Part shown: positions 538 through 55,000 of the stretch, in pieces
Numbering within the stretch: position 1 is the stretch's first letter
How the letters are laid out: each line of letters opens with the position of its first letter
DNA from: Candidatus Marinacidobacterales bacterium
GTDB lineage: Bacteria > Acidobacteriota > Vicinamibacteria > Marinacidobacterales > SMYC01
Direction of reading: 5' to 3'
DNA length: 64,000 nucleotides
Assembly: GCA_965224085.1 (NCBI GenBank)
Contig: CBDCYI010000009.1
Location: forward strand, 64,001 to 128,000
Translations under genes and position numbers: made by a program
Notes under the pieces: model-generated
What the model was told of the DNA's origin: nothing
Seen by the model: the letters and a program-made list of their open reading frames with translations, nothing else
Database searches by the model: none

Positions 538-627
538 GCTTACCTCCAATACGAGGCGATCAACAGCGGGACGTCGTTTGGCGCGATCGATCTGGACCGT
601 CCGCCTTCCTCGAGCACAAACTGCGCA

Positions 628-2079
628 TTAGCTTTCGAGGTTCGGCACCTGCCATCGTTTGCGGCGAAGCAGCTCACCGCTGCCGGGCTTACCCGTGATC
701 CGACCATTCTCGTACACGATTTCACCGCGACGAATCGTAATTTGGGGCCAGCCGGTCGCTTCCTGGCCAGCGTGGATGGAGAAGCCGGTGTTAGAGAGCA
801 TATCTTCGTCTCGAATCGTTCGCGTCTCGTTCGGATCCCACACAACCAGATCGGCATCGGAGCCGACCGCGATCGTCCCTTTTCGAGGGTAGAGGCCGAA
901 CAGCTTCGCCGGATTCGTTGCGGTCACGGCGACGAACTGTTCTTCCGTGATTCTTCCCGTCCGGACCCCTTCCGAATACAGCATCGGTCGGATCTCCTGC
1001 AGGTTGGGGATGCCGGGCCGGTGGTCGGTTACCGTTTGCGAGGGATTGAGTTTTTGCTCTTTCGTATATGGAACGTGGTCCGTTCCAAGGACGTGGACCG
1101 TTCCAGCAGCGAGTCCCTTCCAGAGCGCATCCTGGTCGTTTTTTGTGCGCAGCGGGGGGTGGTGGATATACATTCCCCGATTCGCTCCCTCGAGTTTGTC
1201 CCGTGTGAGATGGAGGTAGATCCCGAGCGCTTCGACGTAGACCGGCAACCCGCGCGCTTTGGCTTCCTCGGCGACGCGCAACGCCCGTTCCGCCGACAGG
1301 TGCACGATATAGATCGCCGCTCCAGTCGCCTCGGCCATCGCCACCGCGCGGTGTGTGGCGATCACTTCGGCGAGGACGGGTCGGCTGTCGGAAAAGTATT
1401 CGAGCGAGCCATGGCCCTCGGCCGTCAGACGCTCCTGCGTATGCGCGACGATCGCGGCATCTTCACAGTGCACCATCGTCAAGACGCCCGCTTCCGCGGC
1501 CGCGGCCATCGTCTCCAGGTAAGCGTGGCTCTTCTCATCGAATGCCGCACGGCTCATGAAGACCTTGACACTCGTCTGTCCGAGCTCAGGCAACGATGCG
1601 ATCTGCTCCTTCTGTACGTCGGGGTTGTTGATGCCCGGGTGGAGCATGACGTCGGCGATGGCCTGGGCCCGCACCAGCTCAGCCTGGCGCTCGACGGCTT
1701 CTGAGAGACTTTCTTCTGATTGCGGAAACGCAAGGCTGGAAATCGTCGTGATCCCACCGGCGAGCGCTGCCGCGGAGCCGCTGGTGAAATCATCGGCCCG
1801 GTCGATGTGGACGTGAGGGTCGACTCCCCCGGGCAAAACGAGGAGCCCGGCAGCGTCGATCTCCCGAGCGCCACTAGAGTCCGCCAGATTCTGCCCGATT
1901 TCGACGATGACACCGTCGCGAACTCTAATATCGCCTTCGGAGCGTCCGTCAACGGTCACGATGACCCCGTTGCGGATGATCAGCTCGCCTGACTGTTGCG
2001 TTGCGGCGCCAACCAGCGGTGCCACGCACAACAAGATGAGCATCGACAGCAATCGAGGATGATTTGTTTTCGAGTGCAT
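628..2079 (-). CDS. Dihydropyrimidinase/hydantoinase-family amidohydrolase with signal peptide
   Basis: PGGVDPHVH, SVKVFM (carbamylated Lys), VHCED, GTDH, NPAKLFGLYPRKG, DADLVVWDP; hydrophobic N-terminus. Confidence 0.9.
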   Translation of the reverse strand: MHSKTNHPRLLSMLILLCVAPLVGAATQQSGELIIRNGVIVTVDGRSEGDIRVRDGVIVEIGQNLADSSGAREIDAAGLLVLPGGVDPHVHIDRADDFTSGSAAALAGGITTISSLAFPQSEESLSEAVERQAELVRAQAIADVMLHPGINNPDVQKEQIASLPELGQTSVKVFMSRAAFDEKSHAYLETMAAAAEAGVLTMVHCEDAAIVAHTQERLTAEGHGSLEYFSDSRPVLAEVIATHRAVAMAEATGAAIYIVHLSAERALRVAEEAKARGLPVYVEALGIYLHLTRDKLEGANRGMYIHHPPLRTKNDQDALWKGLAAGTVHVLGTDHVPYTKEQKLNPSQTVTDHRPGIPNLQEIRPMLYSEGVRTGRITEEQFVAVTATNPAKLFGLYPRKGTIAVGSDADLVVWDPNETRTIRDEDMLSNTGFSIHAGQEATGWPQITIRRGEIVYENGRITGKPGSGELLRRKRWQVPNLES

Positions 2080-2141
2080 CCTTCTTCTCCTCAGGAACTT
2101 TTTCTCATGAAACTTGCGACGCCCCGGGTAGCGGGCGTTCT

Positions 2142-4361
2142 CTAACTTTCGGGAACGCTCGGCGGCAGATGACGGAGGAAGTAATCGGTCATCAGTGTGA
2201 ACCGATGCAGTTGGGTATTGCCGCCTCGCAGTGAGTGGTCGCGACCGTGATAGAGCATCAGATCGAACTGTTTGTTGGCCGCCTGCAAAGCCTCAACCAC
2301 CTCGACCGTGTTCTGTAACTGCACGTTGTCGTCCGCGATCCCGTGTATCAGTAAAAGGTGACCTTTCAGCTTCGGCGCGTAGGTGACGACCGCCTCCTTG
2401 TCGTAAGCTGCCATGTTCTCCTTCGGCAGGCCCATGTACCGCTCGGCCCAGGAGCTCGAGTAGAAAAGATAATTCGTGACCGGTGCGATCGAGACCCCGA
2501 CCGTGAAGTAGTCCGATCCTTCGGTCAGAGCGAAACACGTGAGGTATCCGCCGGCGCTCCTGCCCCAGATGCCCAAGCCCGATGGGTCCACGTAGGCCAG
2601 GCGGGAGAGGTATTTCGCTCCTTCGATGTGATCGCGCAGCGGCCACGTCCCGAGGTTCTGGTACATGAAGTTCTCGAAAGCTTTCCCCCGCCCGCCGGTG
2701 CCACGATTGTCGATCGTGAACACGATGTAGCCCTTGTGGGTCATGAACTGTTGCCACAGCCCTCGATCGCCTCCCCAACGGTTGACCACCGTCTGAGAGC
2801 TCACGCCACCGTAGGCGTAAACGACGACCGGATATTTCTTTTTCGGGTCGAAACCGGCCGGCTTGATCATGACGGCGTTCAAATCCACCCCGTCGCTCGT
2901 CCGTACCGTCAGGAACTCCGGCTTCACCAGCTCGAAATCTGCCAAACCGTGCATCTCGCCGTTCCTCACCGAGCGCACGAGCGTGCCATCCGATCGATGC
3001 AGACTGATCTGTGGCGGTGTGTTCACGTCGGAGAACGTGTTCACGAAATGCTTGGCATCGGGTGACACGGACGCCGCATGCCACCCCGGCTCGGTGCTCA
3101 ACCGCTGGAGCTTCTGGCCGTCGAGCTTCACGCGGTAGACGTGCTGTTCGACGACGCCGTCCTTCTTGCCGTCGAAGTACAACCAGCCATCCGCCTCATC
3201 GACACCGAGCACCGCGCGACGCGATCGTCCCGCGTTAATCTCCCACTCGCCGCTCGTGATCGGGTTCAACAAGCGGCCGTCGTAGTCGTACAGGTAGGCG
3301 TGTTTATACCCGCTCCGCTGCGACGTCCAGATGAATCGGTCAGAGTTCTCTAGAAACGTCAGATCGTCGTCGATGCGCACCCAGTACGGATCGGTCTCCG
3401 TCAAGACCACCCGGGATGCGCCGGTGGTCACGTCGGCAAAAAGCAGCTCGAGCTTGTTCTGCTGCCGGTTGAGGCGCTCGATGGCTACCTGCGTCGGGTC
3501 GCGCGTCCATTTCAGACGCGGGAAGTAGACGTCCGTGTCCGGGCCGAGCGAAAGCCAAGTCGTCTCGCCCGAGTCGAGGTGAAGGACGCCGACGCGCAGC
3601 TTCCAATTCGTTTCTCCTGCCTTCGGATACTTCTTCCAATGCACCTGGGGATGCGGCGTAAGAAAGTCGATGAGGGGGACAGTGCCCACCGCGCTCTGGT
3701 CCACCCGTACGAACAGGATCCGTTTGCCGTCGGGCGACCAGCGCCAGCCATCCGACCCGAGGCCTTTGTTCACGCCGTTCAGGATGTCATCGCTGCCGTC
3801 GAAGGTGAGCTGGGTCTCAGTGCCGGACGCCCGGTCGACTATGTAGAGGTTGCCGCCTCGAACGAATCCGATCTTGGCGGCGTCGGGCGCGAGCTTGGCG
3901 TATTGCTGGCCGCCAGCAATTCCGGACAAGGGTCTGAACGTGCGCGTCGCGGTGTCATAGAGGTAATAGCTCCGGTCGGGGGGCGGGGAGCCGCGAAAGT
4001 CGACTTGGCTCCGCGGCCCGGCAATCACGAAAAACCGGCCATCCTCGCTCGCCTGATAGTCCGTGAACGCGATGGGTGCACCGCCCGAGCCGAGCACCAG
4101 GGACTTGCCATCGACCACGACGGCGCGCTCGCCGTCGTCGACGTTCTCCCGATAGATGTTGTTGGTTTTGCCATCCGGATGGGCGTCCACGTAGAGGAAC
4201 GCAGATCCGTCAGCTTCCCACTGTAGGCTCTGCAGGGACACACCGTCCCAGTTAGCGTCTGGTGCGAAGATGTCTTCGAGCGTCAGCGTGCGCTTCGGCG
4301 CGGCGGACGCGAGAGCGGGAAGTGCCAGGAGGCACAGGACGGATACGAGTCGTCTAGTCAT
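2142..4361 (-). CDS. Secreted S9B dipeptidyl peptidase IV-like peptidase
   Basis: Signal peptide, DPPIV propeller, GRSAGG nucleophile elbow, HGIADDNV, RDH. Confidence 0.92.
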   Translation of the reverse strand: MTRRLVSVLCLLALPALASAAPKRTLTLEDIFAPDANWDGVSLQSLQWEADGSAFLYVDAHPDGKTNNIYRENVDDGERAVVVDGKSLVLGSGGAPIAFTDYQASEDGRFFVIAGPRSQVDFRGSPPPDRSYYLYDTATRTFRPLSGIAGGQQYAKLAPDAAKIGFVRGGNLYIVDRASGTETQLTFDGSDDILNGVNKGLGSDGWRWSPDGKRILFVRVDQSAVGTVPLIDFLTPHPQVHWKKYPKAGETNWKLRVGVLHLDSGETTWLSLGPDTDVYFPRLKWTRDPTQVAIERLNRQQNKLELLFADVTTGASRVVLTETDPYWVRIDDDLTFLENSDRFIWTSQRSGYKHAYLYDYDGRLLNPITSGEWEINAGRSRRAVLGVDEADGWLYFDGKKDGVVEQHVYRVKLDGQKLQRLSTEPGWHAASVSPDAKHFVNTFSDVNTPPQISLHRSDGTLVRSVRNGEMHGLADFELVKPEFLTVRTSDGVDLNAVMIKPAGFDPKKKYPVVVYAYGGVSSQTVVNRWGGDRGLWQQFMTHKGYIVFTIDNRGTGGRGKAFENFMYQNLGTWPLRDHIEGAKYLSRLAYVDPSGLGIWGRSAGGYLTCFALTEGSDYFTVGVSIAPVTNYLFYSSSWAERYMGLPKENMAAYDKEAVVTYAPKLKGHLLLIHGIADDNVQLQNTVEVVEALQAANKQFDLMLYHGRDHSLRGGNTQLHRFTLMTDYFLRHLPPSVPES

Positions 4362-22200: not shown

Positions 22201-25085
22201 TCAGTTGTCGGTGGGGACGAGGCGCTTCAGCTCCTGAAACCAGTTCTGGACGACCTGAAACTCAGGTGGCCCTTGGCTCTCGACCTGGATAAAGACGAAC
22301 CTCTTGCCGTCGGGAGCGAGATCGTACAGTCGGGGGAAGGCCGGGAGATGACGCAAATACCCCTCCTCGAAAAGCAATTGTGGTGGTCCCACAGACAGCT
22401 CAGGACGGGAGACTTGCACTCTCATCATCCCGTTCTCGGTCCGGTAGTAGAGTTCTGCCTGATCCGGCGACCACACCGGGGCACTCCCGCCGTCTGTCGA
22501 CACCTGCTGCCTTCCACCGGGCCGCTCGTAGGGCGTGATGTAGACCTGCCTCCGGCCCGATTCATTGGAGGTGTATGCCATCCAAAGCCCATCGGGTGAC
22601 AAGACCGGCTGGGCCTGCATTCCCCTAGGGTCGAGGACGGTCCGCGAGGTTCGGTCCGCTAAAGTTAGCTCAAAGATCCCCCAGTCTTGGTGGTGAGTGT
22701 CCGTGTAGAGAAGGCGCTCCCCATCCGCGGACAAGGCATCGGGAATCTGATGGCCAGCGCTCTCGGTCAGTCGTTCCGCAGGCCTGCTTCCGTCAACCGC
22801 TAAAGAGAAAAGGTTCACGTCCTGACCGGGAGCCGTGGCGCTGACCGCCAAGCTCTGGCCGTCCGGACTCCACGCAATACCTTCAAAAAAGAAGCCCTCG
22901 CCCGATGGACCGTCGAAGCTGGAAGCCACGAGGCTCAAACGCTCTTGCTCCAGCTCGTAGACATAAATCTCATGGGGTGTCGCGTCCGCCCCCACGGACA
23001 CGGCGAGACGACGGCCATCGGGTGAGAAGCGAGCTCGCCAGTAGGGCATCAGTGGAGCGGCGAGCGGAGCAGCCGTTCCTTGAAGATCCACGAGGACCAA
23101 ACGGGATATCGGGAAACGCCGGGCAAAGTAAACGAGCGTTCCGGTGTCGGAAAACGTGAAGAAGGCGACGCCGTTTCCGAGTGAGCGTACAGTGACGCCT
23201 GTCTGAACGGGAATTCCCGTGCCTCTCACCTCCATGCGGTCGAGATCGAACGGATGGCGTACAGAGTATCCTCTCTTGCGTAAATCAGGTGTCCTGTCGG
23301 TGCGTAGCGAGCGTAGCTCGCATTGAGCAAGAATCTACGCTCGCCGGTCTCCAAGGATTGCACCACGATGTTGGAGTCATCATGGTTTTGGCCGGTCACG
23401 GCGCAAAAGATGACGCCCTTTCCGTTGGGCAGTGCGTGCGGCCAGTAATGTAATCTTTCACCTTGATCGGGATTAATGCTCGCCAAGACTTCCGGCGTCC
23501 CTCCCGAGGCGGGAACTCTCATGAGGCCCGTCGTATAGTTGGCAAAGACGATCGTCCCGTCGACACTCCAATCGGCGCCCCGGTAATTAGGAGCATCGCA
23601 GAGGACGGCGGCCCCCGCTCCATCGAGACGCACTTTCTTGAGCTTCCCACCCGCGACGAATCCCACCCACTGGCCGTCCGGTGAGAAGAACGGGCCCTGA
23701 CCGCCCTCGGTTCCAGGAATCGGCGTCGACTCGTTCCGGTCGAGTTCTCTGAGGTAAAGTTGGAATCCCTGCCCTTCTATGAATACCCCGTACACCAGTT
23801 GAACGCCATCGGGCGAAAGTGCCGGAGGAAAATGGGTTACATACGTCTCCGCAGGCAGGTTGATGCTCGTTCGAAAGAGCGTCTGGTTTTCAGCGGGACC
23901 GGTGCGCCAGGAAGCCCACAAGGCAAGGCCAGCAAGAACGGCCATCAGCGCTACCAGAACCCAGGGCAGGACGGTCCTCGGGGAAGCAGCGGTCGCGCCA
24001 GCGGCCGGTACGCTTTGTGCTTCGTCCAGCTCGATACGCGCGTCGGCGATGTCATGGAGGCGCCGTCGAGGATCTTTCTGGAGGCATCGACGCAGCAAAC
24101 TTCGGGCAAGCAGCGGCACGTGCTCCGGCAATGCCCCCCAATCCGGCTCTCCTTCCAGGATCTTGGCAATGGTGTCCGAGACCGTCTCTCCAAGGAACGC
24201 AGTCTTGCCCGTCAGCGCTTCATACAAGCAGCATCCGAACGACCAAATGTCCGTGCGCTTGTCCAGAGTCTTGCCACGAGCCTGCTCGGGACTCATATAC
24301 GCGGGCGTTCCGAGAATGACTCCGGTCTCGGTTTCTTGCCGAGTGACGGTTGGTGACTCGGACTTCACGTCCTGAACGAATTCCCCCTTCGCCAAACCAA
24401 AGTCCAAGATTTTTGGGCTTCCTTCGGGTCCGATCTTGATATTGGCGGGCTTCAAGTCACGGTGGATCACACTCTTCTCGTGCGCGGCCTCGAGACCCGT
24501 GGCGATTTGTAAGAACAGCCGGAGAGCTTCGTCGATCGGTATCGGCCCTCGAGCGATTCGTTCCGCCAGCGTCTCGCCCTCGACGAGCTCCATGACGAGA
24601 AAGCGGATCCCGTCCGCGTCTTCGAGCCCGAAGAGGGTCGCGACATTGGGATGGTTCACCGAAGCAAGAAGCCGCGCCTCGCGCTTGAACCTCGCCAAGC
24701 GCTCCTTGTGCTGTGAGAACTCCTCGGGCAGGACCTTGATCGCGACGTCGCGCCCGAGCTTCCCGTCTCGTGCCCGATAAACCTCTCCCATGCCGCCTTT
24801 GCCGATTGGGGAGAGGATCTCGTAGGGGCCGAGGCGCGTTCCGGGGGCAAGTCCCATGCTATCTGTCTCGGTCCCTCTTTGTTTTAGGAGCGAGGAAACT
24901 GGAGCCTGAGCGAGAAAGCCGTTCGCTTCCGCCTCCTCATGGTTGGCCAAAAGCTCCTTGACCTGCTGTTGCAGCTCGTCCTGTTTGGGACAGGCTTTCT
25001 CCAAGAAAGCGCGCCGGTCCGCTGGGGCGAGCTCGAGCGCGGCTTCGAACAGGGCTGTGACACGCTCCCAAGAATCCGACTTCAA
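22201..25085 (-). pseudogene. Ser/Thr protein kinase with TolB/PD40 repeats, one frameshift near 23250
   Basis: GKGGMGEVY, HRDLKPAN, DFGLAK; second ORF continues the propeller and ends NWFQELKRLVP. Confidence 0.88.
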
Positions 25086-49318: not shown

Positions 49319-49583
49319 GATGAGGTTCGTGAAGTAGTGATACTTCGCGGCGGCGACCGCGGGCGGGTCCTTGTCGATGCCAAGCTTCACCAGTCCGTCG
49401 GGATAGCGCTCGTCCTGGTGGTTCCGTGAGGACGTCGTGCCACACGCGATGGAGCGCTGCCTCGCCTTTCTCGCGGAAGGTCATCGCGGTGAGCCCCGAG
49501 AACGTCCGGCCCCATAGGCGGGTGGCGGTTCCGCATCTCCGCTTCAACGCTTCCAGTTCGGCGCCGGTCTCGGGGGTCTTCAT
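49312..49583 (-). pseudogene. N-terminal stub of a hypothetical gene coupled to the CoA ligase
   Basis: GGAGG RBS, MKTPETGAEL..; frameshift near 49428; abrupt join to the S10 gene. Confidence 0.55.
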
Positions 49584-51268
49584 GGGATCTCCTCCTTGTC
49601 TTCGCGTTGTGCGGGCGCGTTCGGCCGCCAGCCTCCCTTCACCCGATCGTAGGTGCCCGATCGGAGATCGGGCTTCGCCGCGATCAAGTCGGATTTCCTG
49701 ATCTTGAGGCTCGGGGTGCGGGGGAACTCGTCGACGAGCTCGAGGTAGCGCGGGATCTTGAACGGCGCGAGGTTGGCGCTGCAGTGCGCGAGAACGCGCT
49801 CGATGAGGGAATCGTCGCCACTCGAGTCCGGACTGAGCTTGAGGTACGCCTTGACCTCCTCTCCCCGGATCTCGTCGGGCACCGGCAGCACCGCCGCCTC
49901 GAGCACCTCGGGCACGCCGCGCAGTACGGACTCGACTTCGATGGCCGAGACGTTCTCGCCGCTGCGACGGACCATGTCCTTCATGCGACCCAGATACCAG
50001 AACCAGCCGTCCTCGTTGCGGTAGGCGAGATCGCCGGTGCGGAACCAGCCGCCCGGATGAAACGCGTCCGCGCTGGCCTCCGGAGTGCGAAAATAGCCCT
50101 CCAGGATTCCGGCGCCCCGGATGCAGAGCTCGCCGGTCGTGCCGTGGGGCACCGGCGAGCCGTCGGCGTCCGCCACCATCTCCTCGCGGAAGGCGACCGG
50201 GATGCCCACCGTCGCCGTGCCCGTCATCTCCTCGGCCTCCATCGGAACGTACAGCGCGCAGCCCAGCTCGGTCATCGAGAAACCCTGCCGGGCGAGCCCC
50301 CCGTAGCGCCGCTCGTACATCCGATAGTTCTCGGGGCGGTGGCTGTAGCACGACATGACGATGAGATCGTCCAGCCGATCCGCGCGCTCCGGCTGACGCG
50401 ACACCACCTCGGGAAAGTTACAGTACTGGATACGATAGCTCCGCAGCCAGTCGAGGAAACGGCTCGAGTGCATCTTGCGCGCCACGAAGGCGGTGGCGCC
50501 CTGCCAGCAACTCATGAGCGTGAGCCATTGCGCGTCAACGTAGTAGAAGGGCTGGGCAATCAGGATGCGGCGCAACCGATCCTGGAACTGCGCAGCGCCC
50601 GTGCGGCCGAACGTGAGCCAGTACCGGTGGGTCTGCATCGCACCCTTCGGCATGCCGCTCGTGCCGGAGGTGTATTGGATGTTCATGAGAGCATCGAGGG
50701 CGGGCGGCGCCGGCGCCTGGAAATCGGCCGGGGCGGCATCGACCAGGCTCTCCCAGTGGAGCGGGTAGCCGGCCAGCAGGCCTCCGGCGACGATCACGTG
50801 ATCGCGCGGCACGCTCGAGCCGCCCTCGATGGCCTCGAGCACCGGGATCAGATCGTCGGCGATGACGACGTGCGACGCATCGGAGTCGCCGAGCGTGTAA
50901 TCGAGCTCGCGCGGGGTGTAGCTGTCGTTGATGGGCACGGTGACCGCGCCGAGGGAGGCGAGCGCGAGCCAGGTCAGGGGATAGTGGCGGCCGGTGTGGA
51001 CCATCAGCCCCACACGACTCCCGGGGCCGATGCCGGTCGTGGTGAGGCCGGCAGCCGTCCTTCGCACCAGCCGCGACACCTCGCCGTAAGTGAGCTCCTC
51101 GGCGTCGTCGAAGAACACGAGGAACGCTCGCCGCGGATGCGACTGGGCGCGCACCTCGAGCAGGGCGGCGACATTAGCCGGCAGCGGCGCCGCCTCGATC
51201 GCGCGCATCAGGCGCTCGGAGTGCCACTCGGGATTCGGTCTCGACATCCTCCCCCAGTCGGCCGCCAT
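49580..51268 (-). CDS. CaiC-like acyl-CoA ligase
   Basis: YTSGTSGMPKG, FSMTE, FRTGD, RMKDMVRRSGEN, PRTPSLKI. Confidence 0.9.
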   Translation of the reverse strand: MAADWGRMSRPNPEWHSERLMRAIEAAPLPANVAALLEVRAQSHPRRAFLVFFDDAEELTYGEVSRLVRRTAAGLTTTGIGPGSRVGLMVHTGRHYPLTWLALASLGAVTVPINDSYTPRELDYTLGDSDASHVVIADDLIPVLEAIEGGSSVPRDHVIVAGGLLAGYPLHWESLVDAAPADFQAPAPPALDALMNIQYTSGTSGMPKGAMQTHRYWLTFGRTGAAQFQDRLRRILIAQPFYYVDAQWLTLMSCWQGATAFVARKMHSSRFLDWLRSYRIQYCNFPEVVSRQPERADRLDDLIVMSCYSHRPENYRMYERRYGGLARQGFSMTELGCALYVPMEAEEMTGTATVGIPVAFREEMVADADGSPVPHGTTGELCIRGAGILEGYFRTPEASADAFHPGGWFRTGDLAYRNEDGWFWYLGRMKDMVRRSGENVSAIEVESVLRGVPEVLEAAVLPVPDEIRGEEVKAYLKLSPDSSGDDSLIERVLAHCSANLAPFKIPRYLELVDEFPRTPSLKIRKSDLIAAKPDLRSGTYDRVKGGWRPNAPAQREDKEEIP

Positions 51269-51494
51269 TATACCGGGGTCGACTTGACAAGAACGGCTCC
51301 CGGTCGCGACTCGCTTACTTGTGGTGGTGTCCCGCTAAATCGATTTGTTCCGCAACGCCTTATGCTACTCAATGCTTCTAGGCGCTACCTTCGGGCAGGG
51401 GCTCGGGCTCGGGCACGGTGTGGAGCAGAATCCTGGTTTTCGAGACAGAAGTTAGCGAGACCCTATAACGAGTTAGCGCACCTTGCCGACGAGC

Positions 51495-51650
51495 TCATCG
51501 GTCGAGAACCACGTCGATACGTTCCAAGACTTCTTTCAATAGACGACCGGGTATCCTACTCACTTGCTCGGTGAAGAGAGCGCGATCGACCACGATGATT
51601 TTCGAAACGTTCGCTACGGAATCTTTCGGAAGACCTGATGCACGCGGTCC
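51495..51650 (-). pseudogene. mazF: MazF/PemK toxin C-terminal fragment
   Basis: SGLPKDSVANVSKIIVVDRALFTEQVSRIPGRLLKEVLERIDVVLDR*. Confidence 0.75.
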
Positions 51651-51824
51651 GGACCGGAGTCTTGACGCTTCACCCAGATAACGGATAGATTAGCTCCACG
51701 TTAGAGGTGGCCAATGGCCCTCGGTTCCGGTACTCGGCTTGGTTCCTACGAAATCCTCTCGTCTCTCGGGTCTGGAGGGATGGACTCCCCACGCCGGATC
51801 AAGAGAAAACGTTCTTCGTAATAG

Positions 51825-53094
51825 TCATCCGCGATTCGCTTTTTTTGTGGGCCACCGGGAGGGGTCGTAAAGGGTTCCTTGTCGAAGCATCGCAATGGCG
51901 ATGGGGAGAATGCGGTCCATGACGCCTCTGAGAGTTCTGGCATGGCTGTGGCCTCTGTCACGAAGCCGGTCGTAGTGTTCTTTGAAGTGGGGGTCGTGCA
52001 AAACGGCAGTGCGTGCCCAATGGTGGAGAGCATTATTGAGGGGCAAAGAGCGAGCTCTCCTCATCAGGATCGTTGGTCGCAACTGACCGCGCTTGCCGCT
52101 CTTTTTTGTGACAGGAGCAATGCCGCCGAGAGTCCTGAAGGCGTTGAGATTACGGAGCCGAATGGGGTCGTGGGCATAGCAGAGCACGGAGGCGAGCACG
52201 TAAGCACCGACGCCGGGCAAAGAGGCAAGAATGGCAGGGTCGGAGCAATGCTCGTCGGTTAGTGCTTGCACGCGCTTGAACCACTTCTCGAGATGCTGGT
52301 CGGAGGCACGACGATGTTGTCGAACGAGGAGCAACTGCTGGAGTAGTAGTTGGAGATGCTCGGCGGTAGCTTGAGTGGTTGCGGTTGCGACCCGGAGAGG
52401 TTTTTGTTTGAGGGTATCGAGGATCTTCTCGGGTTTTAGACGTCGGATGCGGTGTTTTTGAGCGAGGGTCTCAATGGAGTGGCGGCTAAGAGGGTTGGGG
52501 CTGGATTCGAAGAAGAGTTTTAGGAGCTCGCAGAAAAAAGCGTCGAGAGCCTTGTCCTTTGGCGCGAGCGAGACGAGGTGAGGCCAGCAACGAGTAAGGA
52601 GTTCTCGGATCTGCGAGCTGAGGGCCACATGGTTTTTGACGAGTTGGTCGCGGGTACTCAGCAACCCGCGCATAGCGAGGATCTCCGTAGGTGGGAGATG
52701 CAAGCGCTGAAAGCGGTGGCCGTCGGTTCTGAGCGAATCGGCGAGAACGAAGGCGTCTCGCCGATCATCCTTGGCGCCGCTCATAGAATGCCGGTCGCGG
52801 AAACGGTCGACCTGCTTGGGATTGATGGAGAAAATGGCGATGCCGTGGTCAAGAAAGAGCTCGACGACGGCCCCATGAGGTTTTTCGATCGCCACCGCGA
52901 TGCGCTCGGTATCTTGCGAGGTCTCTTCCAAAAGCCAGTCGATGGTTCCCGATAGTCCTTCGCGGCTATGGGGGGAAGCCTCTCTCCGCCAAGAAGTTAC
53001 CTTTGGCATCGACCACACTGGCCAAGTGAAGCCATTGACCCAGGTCGATACCGACGAAGAAGTCGTATTTGAGTTGATTCATGGAAGAACTCAT
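51825..53094 (-). CDS. IS110 DEDD recombinase split by one extra base in a C6 run near 52970
   Basis: FVGIDLG, AIEKP, KDDRRDA, LPGVG, APVTKKSG (catalytic Ser). Confidence 0.9.
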
Positions 53095-53114
53095 TTCCGC
53101 CAGCGCATGTGATG

Positions 53115-53250
53115 TTTCATCGGCCCCTGTACTGGCGCTCGAAGCGCAACTCCCCACTGGATGTCCATCACAAAAGAATTGCCGGCACGCATGTCCATTC
53201 CTGGCGCTAGGAGCGCAGGGCGACGTATGGCGTTGCCGGCAAGCTGCTGA
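53115..53250 (-). ncRNA. Putative bridge RNA (target- and donor-binding loops)
   Basis: Two stem/internal-loop/GCGC-hairpin units; four guide segments match the flanks and ends. Confidence 0.8.
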
Positions 53251-53289
53251 CGAAATCGAAAATAGTCCAAGCTCATCGTGATATTTGCT

Positions 53290-53637
53290 CTACCATGGCA
53301 ATCGGAGTTGTCGCGCGATGCCACGAGTTCGTGCTCGGTTTTTTCTCGGTAGTTTCGGGCGAAGCACGTCCGAGAGTTTTTCTCGAATGTAAAGAACATA
53401 AGGCGGGTCTAGATATTGACTTTGCACTTCCTGGAGCACAGGTGAAAAATAACGAAGGGAGCGAATGGGCTGCAGTGGCTCCTCATGTTCTTGTAGCTCC
53501 CTACGAGCGCAACCCAGAAGTAGGGCACACTCGAATTCGTGTAACGGGACTCCTTGGCGGTAGAGCTGCGTCGCGATGAAGCGGTCGTCGCGCCGTGGCC
53601 GTTGAATGAGCCATCGGGCCACTAGCTTGAATTTCAC
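53290..53637 (-). CDS. Conserved-looking hypothetical protein (passenger)
   Basis: QLYRQGVPL..ECALLLG..RR..PIRSLRYFSPVLQE resembles mobile-element accessory proteins. Confidence 0.6.
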   Translation of the reverse strand: MKFKLVARWLIQRPRRDDRFIATQLYRQGVPLHEFECALLLGCARRELQEHEEPLQPIRSLRYFSPVLQEVQSQYLDPPYVLYIREKLSDVLRPKLPRKNRARTRGIARQLRLPW

Positions 53638-53929
53638 GAACTCCTAGACTGCCAGAATTACTGGGGTGAATGAACCCTTGCTCCGTCACTATTTTCGCCG
53701 CCTGGCGTAGACGATAATTCTGTTGCCGAGCCGCGTGGAGTTTTCGTGAGTTGAAACCTTTCTGGTAATTTCGGTTATTTTCGCGCTGGTTCTCTCGCCG
53801 GGTTTCGTCACGGCAGGTTGGACCGCAGTAGCACTGTCCCTGGTAACATGACTTGCAGATGAAGAAAGGCATCCCACAGCTTTTGTTGCGGCAGAAAAGC
53901 CGGAGAAGAACGACAGGTTTGGTGGCCAT
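53501..53929 (-). CDS. Cys-rich zinc-ribbon/basic protein (passenger), similar to ORFs found beside IS21 istA
   Basis: C-x4-C..CxxC..YCGPTC followed by basic RKLHAARQQNYR..VTEQG; may start at 54025. Confidence 0.7.
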   Translation of the reverse strand: MATKPVVLLRLFCRNKSCGMPFFICKSCYQGQCYCGPTCRDETRRENQRENNRNYQKGFNSRKLHAARQQNYRLRQAAKIVTEQGFIHPSNSGSLGVREIQASGPMAHSTATARRPLHRDAALPPRSPVTRIRVCPTSGLRS

Positions 53930-54269
53930 TCGGAACTCAGCAAAGTGCTGGACGATGGCCGCCCGGATGTGAGAGGCTAGCTTCAACTTGTAGTGGAGCG
54001 CCTCCTCCGGGGGCCATCCAAACATCAGAGCCCCGGTCGTTTGTAGCGGCTGGGGCTCACTATTGTCGCACAGCAGGTTCACCCTCTTCTTGCCGGCGCG
54101 AGACGATCTGACTGACTCGCGCCAAAGGCGCGAGAGGATGCTGGCCTCGCGCCAGAGGCGCGGGATGAGGCCTTGTACACAGACATTTCCTACCGACTCT
54201 TCCCGCAACACACGCTTTCGCTGCACTGATGCTTCGGCAAGCGTACAGGGGGACGTGTATCGAGCGAAG

Positions 54270-55000
54270 TCCTTTTCCCGTCTACAGGAGGCGAACCCAT
54301 CGCCGTCACCGACAGGAACTCGCGCGACCGGAGCCCGAGCTGGTCCTCGGATGGACGCCGGGTCTTTTTCGTCTCGAACCGCGGCGGGAGTATGGATCTC
54401 TGGCAACAGCGCCTCGGGGAGGAAGGGCCGGAGGGTGCTCCAGAGCTCTTGACCGTTGGTGTCGGAATGCGAAGGGCGCCTTTTCTCCCGACGGGACGAA
54501 GCTCGCTTACTCCAAGGGCCGGTTGGTGGGAAACGTGTGGCGCGTGCCCATTCTCCGCGAACGTCCAGCGAGCTGGGCGGATGCCGAGCAGATCACCATA
54601 GGCCAGGCATACACCTGGGTCAGCGACATCTCTCCGGATGGCCGGAGACTCCTGGTGAGTTCCGACCGTTCAGGGAATCGGGATATCTGGGTGCTCCCCG
54701 CCGAGGGGGGCGCTATGACCCAGTTGACGACGAATCCCACGGGTGATGGGCGCGCAAGATGGTTGCCGGACGGACGGGAGATTGCCTTCCGGTCACGCCG
54801 CAGCGGAAACCTGGATCTCTGGGTGATGCCCGCGGAAGGGGTCCCGCCCGGCAACTGACTTCAGACCCAGAACCGAATTACCACGTGTGGTGGTCTCCGG
54901 ACGGAAGGAGATCGCCTTCACCTCGTACCGAAGCGGTAACGCGGAGATTTGGGTGGTCTCGGCGGATGGGGGTGAACCGCGCCAGGTGACGGATCAGCGA
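54270..55000 (+). pseudogene. TolB/PD40-repeat internal fragment with frameshifts
   Basis: WSSDGRRVFFVSNRGG, SDRSGNRDIW, WSPDG repeats spread across frames. Confidence 0.75.

What the first reader, a model, noticed from the sequence alone, without database searches (positions are those of the whole stretch)
51782..54249. Cargo-carrying IS110 bridge-recombinase element whose ends can be read from its own RNA guides
Seen on the minus strand: upstream of the recombinase lie two parallel loops. Loop 1 is TTGCCGGCA..ACGTCGCCC-T-GCGC[TCCTA]GCGC-CA-GGAATGG..TGCCGGCAA. Loop 2 is CATC..GTGGGGAGT-T-GCGC[TTCGA]GCGC-CA-GTACAGG..GATG. GTGGGGAGT (53149-53157) equals the sequence 33 nt past the stop codon (51784-51792, then CC). 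GTACAGG is complementary to CCTGTAC at 54243-54249, about 1 kb upstream. ACGTCGCCC matches the left flank plus core ACGTCCCCC at 8/9. GGAATGG predicts CCATTCC versus the observed right core plus flank CCATCCC, 6/7. Established: IS110 bridge RNAs use four such guides around a dinucleotide core. Inference: the element is 2468 bp with core CC and ideal target ACGTCGC-CC-ATTCC. Unusually, two protein genes and a structured leader sit between the left end and the bridge RNA, so this would be a natural RNA-guided transposon with passengers.
Basis: partly seen in the sequence, partly recalled or inferred. Interest (0 to 1): 0.88.

Follow-up and report, generated by a model that had tools for sequence, protein, structure and literature searches.

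The report
Kinase-targeting bridge-RNA transposon with accessory genes
This is a decayed copy of a multi-copy RNA-guided IS110 transposon that carries two conserved small accessory genes inside its left end and always inserts into the ATP-binding-loop codons of bacterial Ser/Thr kinase genes.

Summary
Window 51782-54249 (minus strand) is one of five full copies of an IS110-family element in this genome, all with the predicted ends. The two RNA loops behave as bridge-RNA target and donor loops: the structure is kept through compensatory changes, and the guides match the flanks and the element ends. In 29 of 29 related loci with enough upstream DNA, the left end lies 1.0-1.2 kb upstream of the RNA.

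Corrections:
- The window copy is dead. A 174-bp deletion breaks both small genes, and an extra C breaks the recombinase.
- The "passengers" are a conserved pair: A is Cys-rich and basic, B is helical. They are under purifying selection, occur as natural A-B fusions and also sit inside IS21-family elements.

New points:
- The target is the antisense strand of the kinase glycine-rich loop. All 28 left and 20 right flanks from other samples fit it.
- Guide variation falls on third-codon positions.
- The nearest A/B-less relatives are canonical 1.74-kb elements.

No circle junction was seen, and the function of A and B remains unknown. Cargo-bearing IS110 elements were described in a 2026 preprint.

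The parts
54250..54256 (-). Left target half-site (7 nt) flanking the element. Together with the core it matches the loop-1 5' arm at 8 of 9 positions.
54248..54249 (-). Left copy of the CC core.
   Evidence: all 9 left junctions carry it.
51784..54247 (-). Body of the IS110-family element, without the two core copies. This is a defective copy.
   Evidence: five full copies share these ends.
54243..54247 (-). Left-end terminus (right donor half). With the core it is complementary to the loop-2 3' arm.
   Evidence: a change in the arm is matched by a change in the end in L028-L032; same terminus in canonical relatives.
53930..54242 (-). Structured non-coding leader. It has a duplicated hairpin at about 54164-54145 and 54134-54116, and a terminator-like hairpin at 54055-54031. 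The upstream ATG at 54025 probably lies in leader RNA, not in coding sequence.
   Evidence: The extension carries stop codons in L030-L033.
53602..53929 (-). Remnant of gene A (Cys-rich, basic, about 138 aa when intact). Its C-terminal CxxC part is lost.
53601..53602 (-). Junction of the 174-bp deletion that removes the end of A and the start of B.
   Evidence: (contigs of X1, X2 and X6 carry 174 extra letters here).
53290..53601 (-). Remnant of gene B (138 aa when intact), lacking its first ~35 codons.
53109..53242 (-). Bridge RNA core. The target-binding loop is 53242-53179 and the donor-binding loop 53171-53109.
53218..53226 (-). Left target guide (9 nt, includes the core).
53193..53201 (-). 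Right target guide (7 nt, 53201-53195) plus two following bases (53194-53193) that could pair with the last two bases of the right end. I read these as a handshake guide.
   Evidence: The handshake is read by eye.
53149..53157 (-). Left donor guide, identical to the last 9 nt of the element.
   Evidence: One mismatch in the sister family and in L051/L054.
53125..53132 (-). Right donor guide (53132-53126) plus one possible handshake base (53125).
51825..53094 (-). IS110 recombinase gene (422 aa when intact), frameshifted by an extra C in the run 52975-52970.
51797..51802 (-). -35-like hexamer in the right end. After circularisation it would face a -10-like hexamer in the left end, 17 nt away.
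   Evidence: a TTGAC-type hexamer in 16 of 16 loci. The promoter itself is inferred.
51784..51792 (-). Right-end terminus (left donor half).
51782..51783 (-). Right copy of the CC core.
   Evidence: all 11 right junctions carry it.
51777..51781 (-). Right target half-site. With the core it matches the right target guide at 6 of 7 positions.
51650..51781 (+). N-terminus of the interrupted Ser/Thr kinase gene, read on the + strand up to G-G-M. Six more kinase codons follow at 54250-54267, after which the frame runs into a PD40-repeat gene.

Best explanation
Window 51782-54249 is a defective copy of an active, multi-copy IS110-family (bridge-recombinase) insertion sequence.

Shown:
- The mobile unit runs from a TGTAC terminus to a GGGGAGT terminus, with a CC core on each side.
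- Just upstream of a DEDD/Ser recombinase gene it encodes an RNA with two internal loops.
- Loop 1 matches the flanks and loop 2 matches the two element ends, in the orientation described for IS621.
- Changes in the loop arms are accompanied by changes in targets or ends across the family.
- The target is the strand opposite the codons G-G-M|G-[ED]-V-Y of Hanks-type kinase genes. The positions where guides differ between family members are third-codon positions.
- Between the left terminus and the RNA lie a structured leader of about 250 nt and two conserved genes, A and B. These also occur inside IS21-family elements and as single fused proteins.

Inferred:
- The element excises as a circle whose RE-CC-LE joint forms a sigma-70-like promoter.
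- That promoter drives one transcript: leader, A, B, bridge RNA, recombinase.
- The RNA then bridges the circle joint and a kinase site for recombination at CC.
- A and B act together as a portable nucleic-acid-binding accessory or regulatory unit of the element, not as host-benefit cargo. I put this last point at about 0.4.

The window copy keeps intact ends and an intact RNA but has A, B and the recombinase broken. It could move only with proteins supplied by sister copies.
For: Copies and ends:
- There are five full copies with identical ends, and 9 left and 11 right junctions in total.

Recombinase:
- PF01548 scores 108.8 bits and PF02371 45.4 bits. NF033542 scores 162.8 bits against a cut-off of 140.

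RNA structure (33 distinct sequences, 31 pairs):
- 98.6% of cells are paired, against 19.8-44.2% when the partners are slid.
- 5 pairs carry changes on both sides.

Guides against ends:
- 40 loci carry the RNA.
- In 29 of the 29 with enough upstream DNA, the reverse complement of the loop-2 3' arm occurs exactly once, 1022-1189 nt upstream.
- A variant 3' arm goes with a variant left end in 5 of 5 loci (L028-L032).
- A variant 5' arm goes with a variant right end in L030 and L032.

Guides against flanks:
- At the variable positions, 33 of 68 (left) and 14 of 28 (right) match.
- Shuffled pairings give 23.0 and 7.5 (p about 0.005 and 0.006).

Target:
- Flanks from other samples read as kinase on the opposite strand in 28 of 28 (left) and 20 of 20 (right).
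- In the own genome 4 of 7 insertion sites are kinase N-termini.
- Of 13 vacant matching sites in the genome, 10 are kinase loops.
- A recombinase lineage only 26% identical carries A-B, has different ends with matching loop-2 arms, and sits at the same kinase position.

Genes A and B:
- dN/dS is 0.21-0.64 for A (28 of 28 pairs) and 0.20-0.54 for B (7 calculable pairs of 15).
- P0073 is an A-B fusion: residues 1-142 match the A profile (E 3.5e-26) and residues 170-302 match the B profile (E 4.5e-44). P0074 is a second fusion.
- Among 85 loci holding B, 39 are A-B-RNA-IS110 and 34 are IS21-type.
- The IS21 unit in L066 (573-3850) has the same bounds in four other contexts, and A and B lie inside its inverted repeats.

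Relatives without A/B:
- Canonical elements of 1742-1783 bp without A/B share the same donor ends but target palindromic repeats.

Other:
- The right end carries a -35-like hexamer in 16 of 16 loci.
- Contigs of three runs carry the intact form, and depth over the element is several-fold that of the flanks.
- The guide orientation is taken from Durrant 2024 (passages) and Hiraizumi 2024 (passages).
Against: - No circle junction and no empty site of this locus was seen. Only assembled contigs could be laid, and these drop rare forms.
- No Rfam family matches.
- No sigma-70 consensus promoter lies inside the element. The junction promoter is read by eye, and its -10 hexamer is weak (3 of 6 in this copy).
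- The fold of the single RNA is not better than shuffles (z = -1.46).
- Strict identity of the left target guide to the flank is rare: 3 of 34 are 9/9. It rises to 18 of 34 only if G-U pairs are allowed (my hand count).
- Metagenome contigs of repeats can be chimeric.
- The left donor guide has one unmatched position in the sister family and in L051/L054. The right end of L033 was not found.
- The donor guide does not Watson-Crick pair with the core.
- Three of seven own-genome sites are not kinases.
- One relative (G037) lacks B, so B is dispensable or supplied in trans.
- A and B have no match in Pfam, NCBIfam, PADLOC, PHROGs or PDB sequences, so their role is pure inference.
- The RNA-library contigs come from relatives and hardly cover A-B.
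Confidence: 0.86

Rival explanations
1. A and B are true passengers: selfish or host-directed genes that merely ride on IS110 and IS21 elements and play no part in transposition or its control.
For: - No homology to any transposition protein or regulator.
- They sit on two mechanistically unrelated transposons.
- One relative works without B.
- Canonical relatives need neither gene.
- A preprint reports that IS110 elements commonly pick up cargo.
Against: - Their position is fixed relative to the transposase genes in both element types: A is first, overlapping istA or B.
- A conserved leader hairpin travels with A.
- They are small and look like nucleic-acid binders (8 conserved Cys plus an Arg/Gln-rich helix). 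This is unlike the resistance, metabolic or defence cargo described in the preprint.
- All 10 strong B hits in this genome lie in element copies.
Confidence: 0.3
2. A and B form an addiction (toxin-antitoxin-like) pair that stabilises the element in the genome.
For: Two small, translationally coupled genes (start and stop overlap) on mobile elements. One of them is a putative DNA binder.
Against: - In IS21 elements the two genes are 2.3 kb apart, on either side of istAB.
- Natural fusions exist.
- One element keeps A alone.
- The window copy has lost both, apparently without consequence.
- No PADLOC match.
Confidence: 0.07
3. The 2.6-kb unit is a nested composite: an independent small A-B element happens to sit inside the left end of an ordinary IS110. 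The true IS110 left end lies next to the RNA.
For: - Canonical relatives have the RNA within about 250 nt of the left end.
- One copy in this genome begins about 35 nt upstream of the RNA.
Against: - All five full copies, and 29 of 29 related loci, share the far-left end, and it matches the donor guide.
- No repeat or end signature lies between B and the RNA.
- The short copy lacks the flank-plus-core signature and occurs once.
- In IS21 elements A and B are not adjacent, so they are not a self-contained element.
Confidence: 0.04
4. The copies spread by segmental duplication or homologous recombination, not by RNA-guided recombination, and the loop-flank matches are coincidental.
For: - Rearranged and truncated copies exist.
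- No circle was observed.
Against: - Homology stops exactly at the cores in every copy, and the flanks are unrelated apart from the 14-nt site.
- Guide and target co-vary.
- Insertions in 28 and 20 different kinase genes from many samples share the same position.
Confidence: 0.02

Closest known systems
IS621 and other IS110-subgroup bridge recombinase elements (Durrant et al. 2024, PMC11208160; Hiraizumi et al. 2024, PMC11208158; passages read)
   Same: - DEDD plus Tnp-domain recombinase.
- RNA upstream of the gene, with a target loop first and a donor loop second.
- The 5' arms have the sense of the left halves; the 3' arms are complementary to core plus right halves.
- Dinucleotide core at both junctions.
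- Possible handshake bases after both 3' arms.
- A promoter half in the right end.
   Different: - The core is CC, not CT.
- The left donor guide covers 9 nt before the core, and the next base can pair with the core only by wobble.
- About 1.1 kb (structured leader plus two genes) lies between the left terminus and the RNA.
- The target is a protein-coding motif, not a REP-type repeat.
- The RNA probably lies 1.2 kb downstream of the junction promoter.
Cargo-bearing 'expanded' IS110 loci (Hu, Xie, Yang, Rubin; bioRxiv 10.64898/2026.08.14.744561; abstract and sections 5, 6 and 8 read)
   Same: An IS110 element larger than 2 kb, with extra genes inside boundaries that match its own guides and no other transposase.
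   Different: - There, cargo is varied (resistance, plasmid DNA), is added stepwise and often downstream, and whole-unit mobility falls with size.
- Here, one small conserved gene pair at a fixed upstream position is kept across recombinases down to 64% identity, and again in a lineage at 26% identity.
- Here the whole unit is multi-copy.
- Their supplements could not be seen and might list such elements.
Canonical sister elements in the same phylum (G314, G240, G142; loci L100-L111)
   Same: - Recombinase 40-44% identical.
- The same donor ends and donor guides.
   Different: - 1742-1783 bp long, with no A/B and no long leader.
- Their target loop reads palindromic repeat units.
IS21-family elements carrying A and B (L014, L017, L056-L081 and others)
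   Same: They carry the same two protein families and the same hairpin upstream of A, inside the element ends.
   Different: - A DDE transposase (IstA) and an ATPase (IstB) lie between A and B.
- Terminal inverted repeats are present.
- There is no guide RNA.
Small DNA-binding regulators encoded at the 5' end of insertion sequences, such as IS1 InsA (recalled, not tested here)
   Same: A small Zn-binding or basic protein encoded first in the element, upstream of or overlapping the transposase gene.
   Different: No sequence relationship was found. Binding of A to the ends or the leader is untested.

Membership tests
IS110 family (IS110 subgroup) bridge-recombinase element | Recombinase with an N-terminal DEDD (RuvC-like) domain and a C-terminal Tnp (Ser) domain. 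| tested here: met
   On the intact sister copy, PF01548 scores 108.8 bits, PF02371 45.4 bits and NF033542 162.8 bits (cut-off 140). The window copy is frameshifted. Individual catalytic residues were not checked.
IS110 family (IS110 subgroup) bridge-recombinase element | Structured non-coding RNA with two internal loops, encoded upstream of the recombinase gene. | tested here: met
   31 pairs are 98.6% paired in 33 distinct sequences, 5 pairs are compensatory, and slid controls give 20-44%. There is no Rfam match, and the single-sequence fold has z = -1.46.
IS110 family (IS110 subgroup) bridge-recombinase element | Target-loop arms match the left flank plus core (same sense) and the core plus right flank (complement). 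| tested here: met
   Mean identity is 7.7 of 9 and 6.5 of 7. Matches at the variable positions exceed shuffles (p about 0.005 and 0.006). The sister family shows a matching change.
IS110 family (IS110 subgroup) bridge-recombinase element | Donor-loop arms match the right-end and left-end termini. | tested here: met
   29 of 29 left ends and 22 right ends were found by exact match, with matching changes in L028-L032. Exceptions: one mismatch in the sister family and in L051/L054; L033 was not found.
IS110 family (IS110 subgroup) bridge-recombinase element | The same short core at both junctions, and no terminal inverted repeats. | tested here: met
   CC is present at all 9 left and 11 right junctions. 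The two termini are not inverted repeats (read).
IS110 family (IS110 subgroup) bridge-recombinase element | A circular intermediate whose joint forms a promoter. | not testable with these tools
   Only contigs were available and no back-joint was listed. A -35-like hexamer is in the right end of 16 of 16 loci. The -10 hexamer is read by eye.
IS110 family (IS110 subgroup) bridge-recombinase element | Compact size of about 1.2-1.6 kb with only the recombinase gene (the classical definition, as cited in the preprint abstract). | tested here: not met
   The element is 2644 bp with two further genes. This feature is already relaxed by the 2026 preprint.
IS21 family (for the A/B-bearing relatives, not for the window element) | IstA transposase plus IstB ATPase between terminal inverted repeats. 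| tested here: met
   In L017, IstB_IS21 scores 201 bits and IstA matches Mu-transpos_C_2 (88 bits) and rve. The L066 unit 573-3850 has 12-nt ends matching at 10 of 12. The window element has neither gene.

The most novel reading that the evidence does not exclude
A and B are a previously unrecognised, portable accessory module of insertion sequences: a Zn-binding, basic protein and its helical partner, together with a leader hairpin. The module has been recruited independently by unrelated transposition machineries (RNA-guided IS110 recombinases at least twice, and IS21 DDE/AAA+ systems). It controls or assists the step these elements share, namely expression from, or handling of, the joined-ends intermediate. 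If so, natural bridge recombinases in this lineage work with protein cofactors. The lineage has also specialised on the kinase ATP-loop codons, with guides that drift along synonymous sites.
Probability: 0.35. Interest if true: 0.85.

Novelty: new variant of a known kind. Interest (0 to 1): 0.72.

Why it matters
- It is a natural test case in which the ends and the target of an RNA-guided transposon can be read from its own RNA. The reading was checked against dozens of independent insertions.
- It shows that a bridge-RNA element can specialise on a conserved protein-coding motif of a large paralogous gene family. Here that is the kinase glycine-rich loop, with guide diversity confined to synonymous positions. 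This is a different ecological strategy from REP targeting, and a recurrent way of knocking out kinases.
- It identifies two large unannotated protein families as transposon-linked. The A profile finds 2427 representative clusters at E <= 1e-10.
- These families are shared by two unrelated IS families, which points to accessory factors that current two-component bridge-recombinase models and tools do not include.

Tried and rejected
Searches that found nothing:
- Rfam on 51000-55000: no match at E <= 1.
- Pfam, NCBIfam, PADLOC, PHROGs and PDB sequence or profile searches for A and B: nothing significant.
- Literature: searches found no paper on kinase-targeting IS110 elements or on IS21 accessory ORFs of this kind in the held library. 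Supplements of the papers used were not available.

No fold evidence was obtained.
- Earlier-findings tool: not open.

Ideas tested and dropped:
- I considered that the IS110 left end derives from the IS21 left inverted repeat. This is rejected. Leader similarity equals the shuffle mean (score 18.0 against 17.95), and canonical A/B-less IS110 relatives already have the same left terminus.
- Circle junction or empty site in public runs: no such joint was listed among the contigs of X1, X2, X6 and X16. Contigs cannot show rare forms.
- RNA-library contigs (X16) come from 90-95% relatives and cannot show transcription.
I did not rerun it. Only a hand count from the output is given.
- The exact-match search for the right end missed L033, L051 and L054. 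L051 and L054 have one mismatch; L033 was left unresolved.

Caveat on the tree:
- The A tree used 28 of the 51 A ORFs found. The backbone type of L069 and L070 was assumed from similarity.
Full report
**Observation.**
- An IS110-type recombinase gene runs from the ATG at 53094 to the stop at 51827-51825.
- Upstream of it are two similar internal loops.
- The 5' arm of loop 2 (53157-53149) equals the last nine bases before a CC at 51783-51782.
- The 3' arm of loop 2 (53132-53126) is complementary to CC plus five bases at 54249-54243.
- The two arms of loop 1 match the sequences just outside these points at 8/9 and 6/7.
- The recombinase ORF is split.

**Is it a mobile unit with these ends?** Yes.
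- BLAST of the region against the organism's own genome gives five full copies.
- Their homology starts and stops exactly at the predicted bases.
- A scan finds 9 left and 11 right junctions in total, all with the CC core.
- The five copies differ at only a handful of positions.
- The window copy lacks 174 bp at 53601/53602 and, like one other copy, has an extra C in the run 52975-52970.
- Three copies are intact at 2644-2645 bp.
- Contigs of three public runs carry the 174 extra letters and lack the extra C. Depth over the element is several-fold that of its flanks.

**Is the RNA a bridge RNA?** The evidence says yes.
- The intact recombinase matches PF01548 and PF02371, and it matches the NCBIfam equivalog 'IS110 family RNA-guided transposase' above its cut-off.
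- I collected relatives through gene B and found the RNA in 40 loci, 33 of them distinct.
- On a hand-drawn two-loop structure of 31 pairs, 98.6% of cells pair. Slid controls give 20-44%. Five pairs show compensatory changes.
- The arm orientation is the one published for IS621: the left guides have the sense of the top strand, and the right guides are complementary to it (passages).
- The donor arms are nearly invariant. Where they vary, the ends vary with them: a changed 3' arm goes with a changed left end in 5 of 5 loci, and a changed 5' arm goes with a changed right end in L030 and L032.
- The target arms vary at three positions only.
- Guide and flank agree at those positions more often than shuffled pairings do: 33/68 against 23.0, and 14/28 against 7.5.
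- In this genome a sister family, about 91% identical, has changed target arms. Two of its three right flanks carry the matching base.
- Two bases after the right target guide could pair with the last two bases of the right end. One base after the right donor guide could pair with the last base of the left target. These would correspond to the 'handshake' bases of IS621. This is my reading and was not tested.

Weak points of the bridge-RNA reading:
- The left donor guide stops before the core. The next base is U (wobble only), or C in L030-L032.
- It has one unmatched position in the sister family and in L051/L054.
- Strict 9/9 identity between the left target guide and the flank is rare (3 of 34). 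By my hand count it becomes 18 of 34 if G-U pairs are allowed.
- Rfam has no matching family.

- In 29 of 29 loci with enough upstream sequence, the complement of the right donor guide occurs once, 1022-1189 nt upstream of the RNA. It is preceded by a flank that resembles the left target guide.
- The other 11 contigs are too short to show it.
- The same holds for a 2.0-kb variant in genome G037 that has A but no B.
- It also holds for L092, whose recombinase is only 26% identical.
- One own-genome copy begins about 35 nt before the RNA. It has no flank/core signature and occurs once, so it is a truncation.
- By contrast, the next recombinase relatives in a sample of 301 genomes of the phylum (40-44% identity, found in 3 other genomes) are canonical elements of 1742-1783 bp without A or B.
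- These canonical elements have the same donor ends and donor guides but target palindromic repeats.
- So the terminus is ancestral IS110. The leader-A-B block was inserted inside the left end of one lineage.

**The target.**
- Joining the flanks of each own-genome copy in a script and reading the opposite strand gives kinase N-termini, interrupted between G-G-M and G-[ED]-V-Y, in 4 of 7 sites. The other three are look-alike sites.
- In loci from other samples, 28 of 28 left flanks and 20 of 20 right flanks read as the two halves of the Hanks-type kinase glycine-rich loop and the following V-A-I-K strand.
- The element is always antisense to the kinase gene.
- The three variable guide positions are the third bases of the Gly, Gly and Asp/Glu codons.
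- The genome still holds 13 vacant matches to the 14-mer with those positions left free. Ten of them are kinase loops, and one is in the window near 24780.
- The 26%-identity lineage has different ends but sits at the same kinase position.
- My searches found no paper describing this. The Durrant paper contains no occurrence of 'kinase'.

**The block between the left end and the RNA.**
- In intact copies it holds a leader of about 250 nt, gene A and gene B. The start of B overlaps the stop of A.
- The leader is conserved and has hairpins: 22 pairs are 82% paired against 25-41% when slid. A terminator-like helix is 87.5% paired with three compensatory pairs.
- The ATG that extends A upstream in this lineage lies in that leader, and the extension carries stop codons in L030-L033. 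A therefore probably starts at 53929.
- A has eight conserved Cys, an Arg/Gln-rich helix and a C-terminal CxxCG motif.
- B is a conserved, probably helical protein.
- Both are under purifying selection.
- Neither matches any library searched.
- The A profile finds 3758 representative clusters at E <= 1e-3 and 2427 at E <= 1e-10.
- All 120 homologues listed for A carry either no name or 'hypothetical protein', and most sit on contigs of 1-4 kb.

**A and B are not specific to IS110.**
- Among 85 loci holding B, 39 are A-B-RNA-IS110 and 34 are IS21-type. In the IS21-type loci A precedes istA and B follows istB, or B is fused to an HTH-like N-terminus. One locus has another order, and 11 are too short to classify.
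- In L066 the IS21 unit (573-3850) has the same bounds in four other contexts. A and B lie inside its inverted repeats.
- The hairpin upstream of A is recognisable there too.
- Two proteins are natural A-B fusions.
- In an A tree, the main IS110 group is one clan (support 96/97). The A of the divergent IS110 lineage groups with the IS21 A sequences.
- These facts favour a functional pair that travels between transposon backbones over random cargo. What the pair does is not shown.

**Mechanism (inferred).**
- The right end carries a TTGAC-type hexamer in 16 of 16 loci. After circularisation it would lie 17 nt from a weak -10 hexamer at the left terminus.
- This is the arrangement described for IS110 circles.
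- No consensus promoter lies inside the element.
- I therefore propose one junction-driven transcript: leader, A, B, bridge RNA, recombinase. The RNA is either processed out of it or acts within it, and A/B act on the leader or on the joined ends.
- The window copy has an intact RNA and intact ends but no working protein gene. It sits in a kinase gene that has itself decayed.

**Comparison and novelty.**
- This is a member of the IS110 bridge-recombinase family by every defining feature that could be tested, apart from the classical size limit.
- IS110 elements with cargo were reported in August 2026, so that point is not new.
- As far as my searches show, four things are new:
  - the fixed upstream position and wide conservation of one accessory pair;
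  - its sharing with IS21 elements;
  - the structured leader;
  - the specialisation on kinase ATP-loop codons, with synonymous-site guide drift.

Noticed in passing
window ~24780 (G000:C9:88780): An intact Ser/Thr kinase gene whose glycine-rich-loop codons match the element's 14-nt target with the three wobble positions left free. It is a vacant potential insertion site inside the same window.
   Followed up: partly
window 54250-54860 (+ strand): The interrupted gene keeps only six kinase codons after the insertion point and then continues as a PD40-repeat frame, which itself carries a frameshift near 54470-54480. It looks like a kinase-PD40 gene that decayed after the insertion. An internal deletion is suspected.
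   Followed up: partly
G000:C11:764560-766950 (L007): A sister-family copy is truncated inside gene A and abuts an inverted 32-nt right-end fragment of another copy. This is a rearrangement between two copies or an insertion of one into the other.
   Followed up: no
G000:C5:333078-334703; C5:1945125-1946508; C4:1703784-1704404: Further partial copies: one with an internal deletion of about 1 kb, one that is left part only, and one that is right part only.
   Followed up: no
L018, L019 (metagenome contigs): B (89%) and the recombinase (93-94%) are close to the window family, but A is only 59% identical, with a different Zn-finger and helix segment. This indicates mosaic exchange within gene A.
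   Followed up: no
window 53125-53166: In three DNA runs and one RNA-library run, several contigs share only this donor-loop stretch and diverge on both sides, and depth peaks here. The donor loop seems to be shared by a wider set of elements in those samples.
   Followed up: no
L015, L016, L095, L097: In one IS21 subgroup, B is the C-terminal half of a 250-aa protein. Its N-terminus weakly resembles HTH_36 and replication-initiator HTH domains (E 0.0015 to 0.03, below cut-offs), and no A was found upstream.
   Followed up: partly
L004 1844-2012 (window ~53257-53090): The minimum-energy fold pairs the stretch just before the target loop with the stretch just before the recombinase start codon. 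This would enclose both loops and possibly mask the ribosome-binding site. Conservation was not tested.
   Followed up: no
window 49580-51268 (- strand): A 562-aa ORF that looks like an acyl-CoA/AMP-dependent ligase lies next to the element. It appears unrelated to the finding.
   Followed up: no
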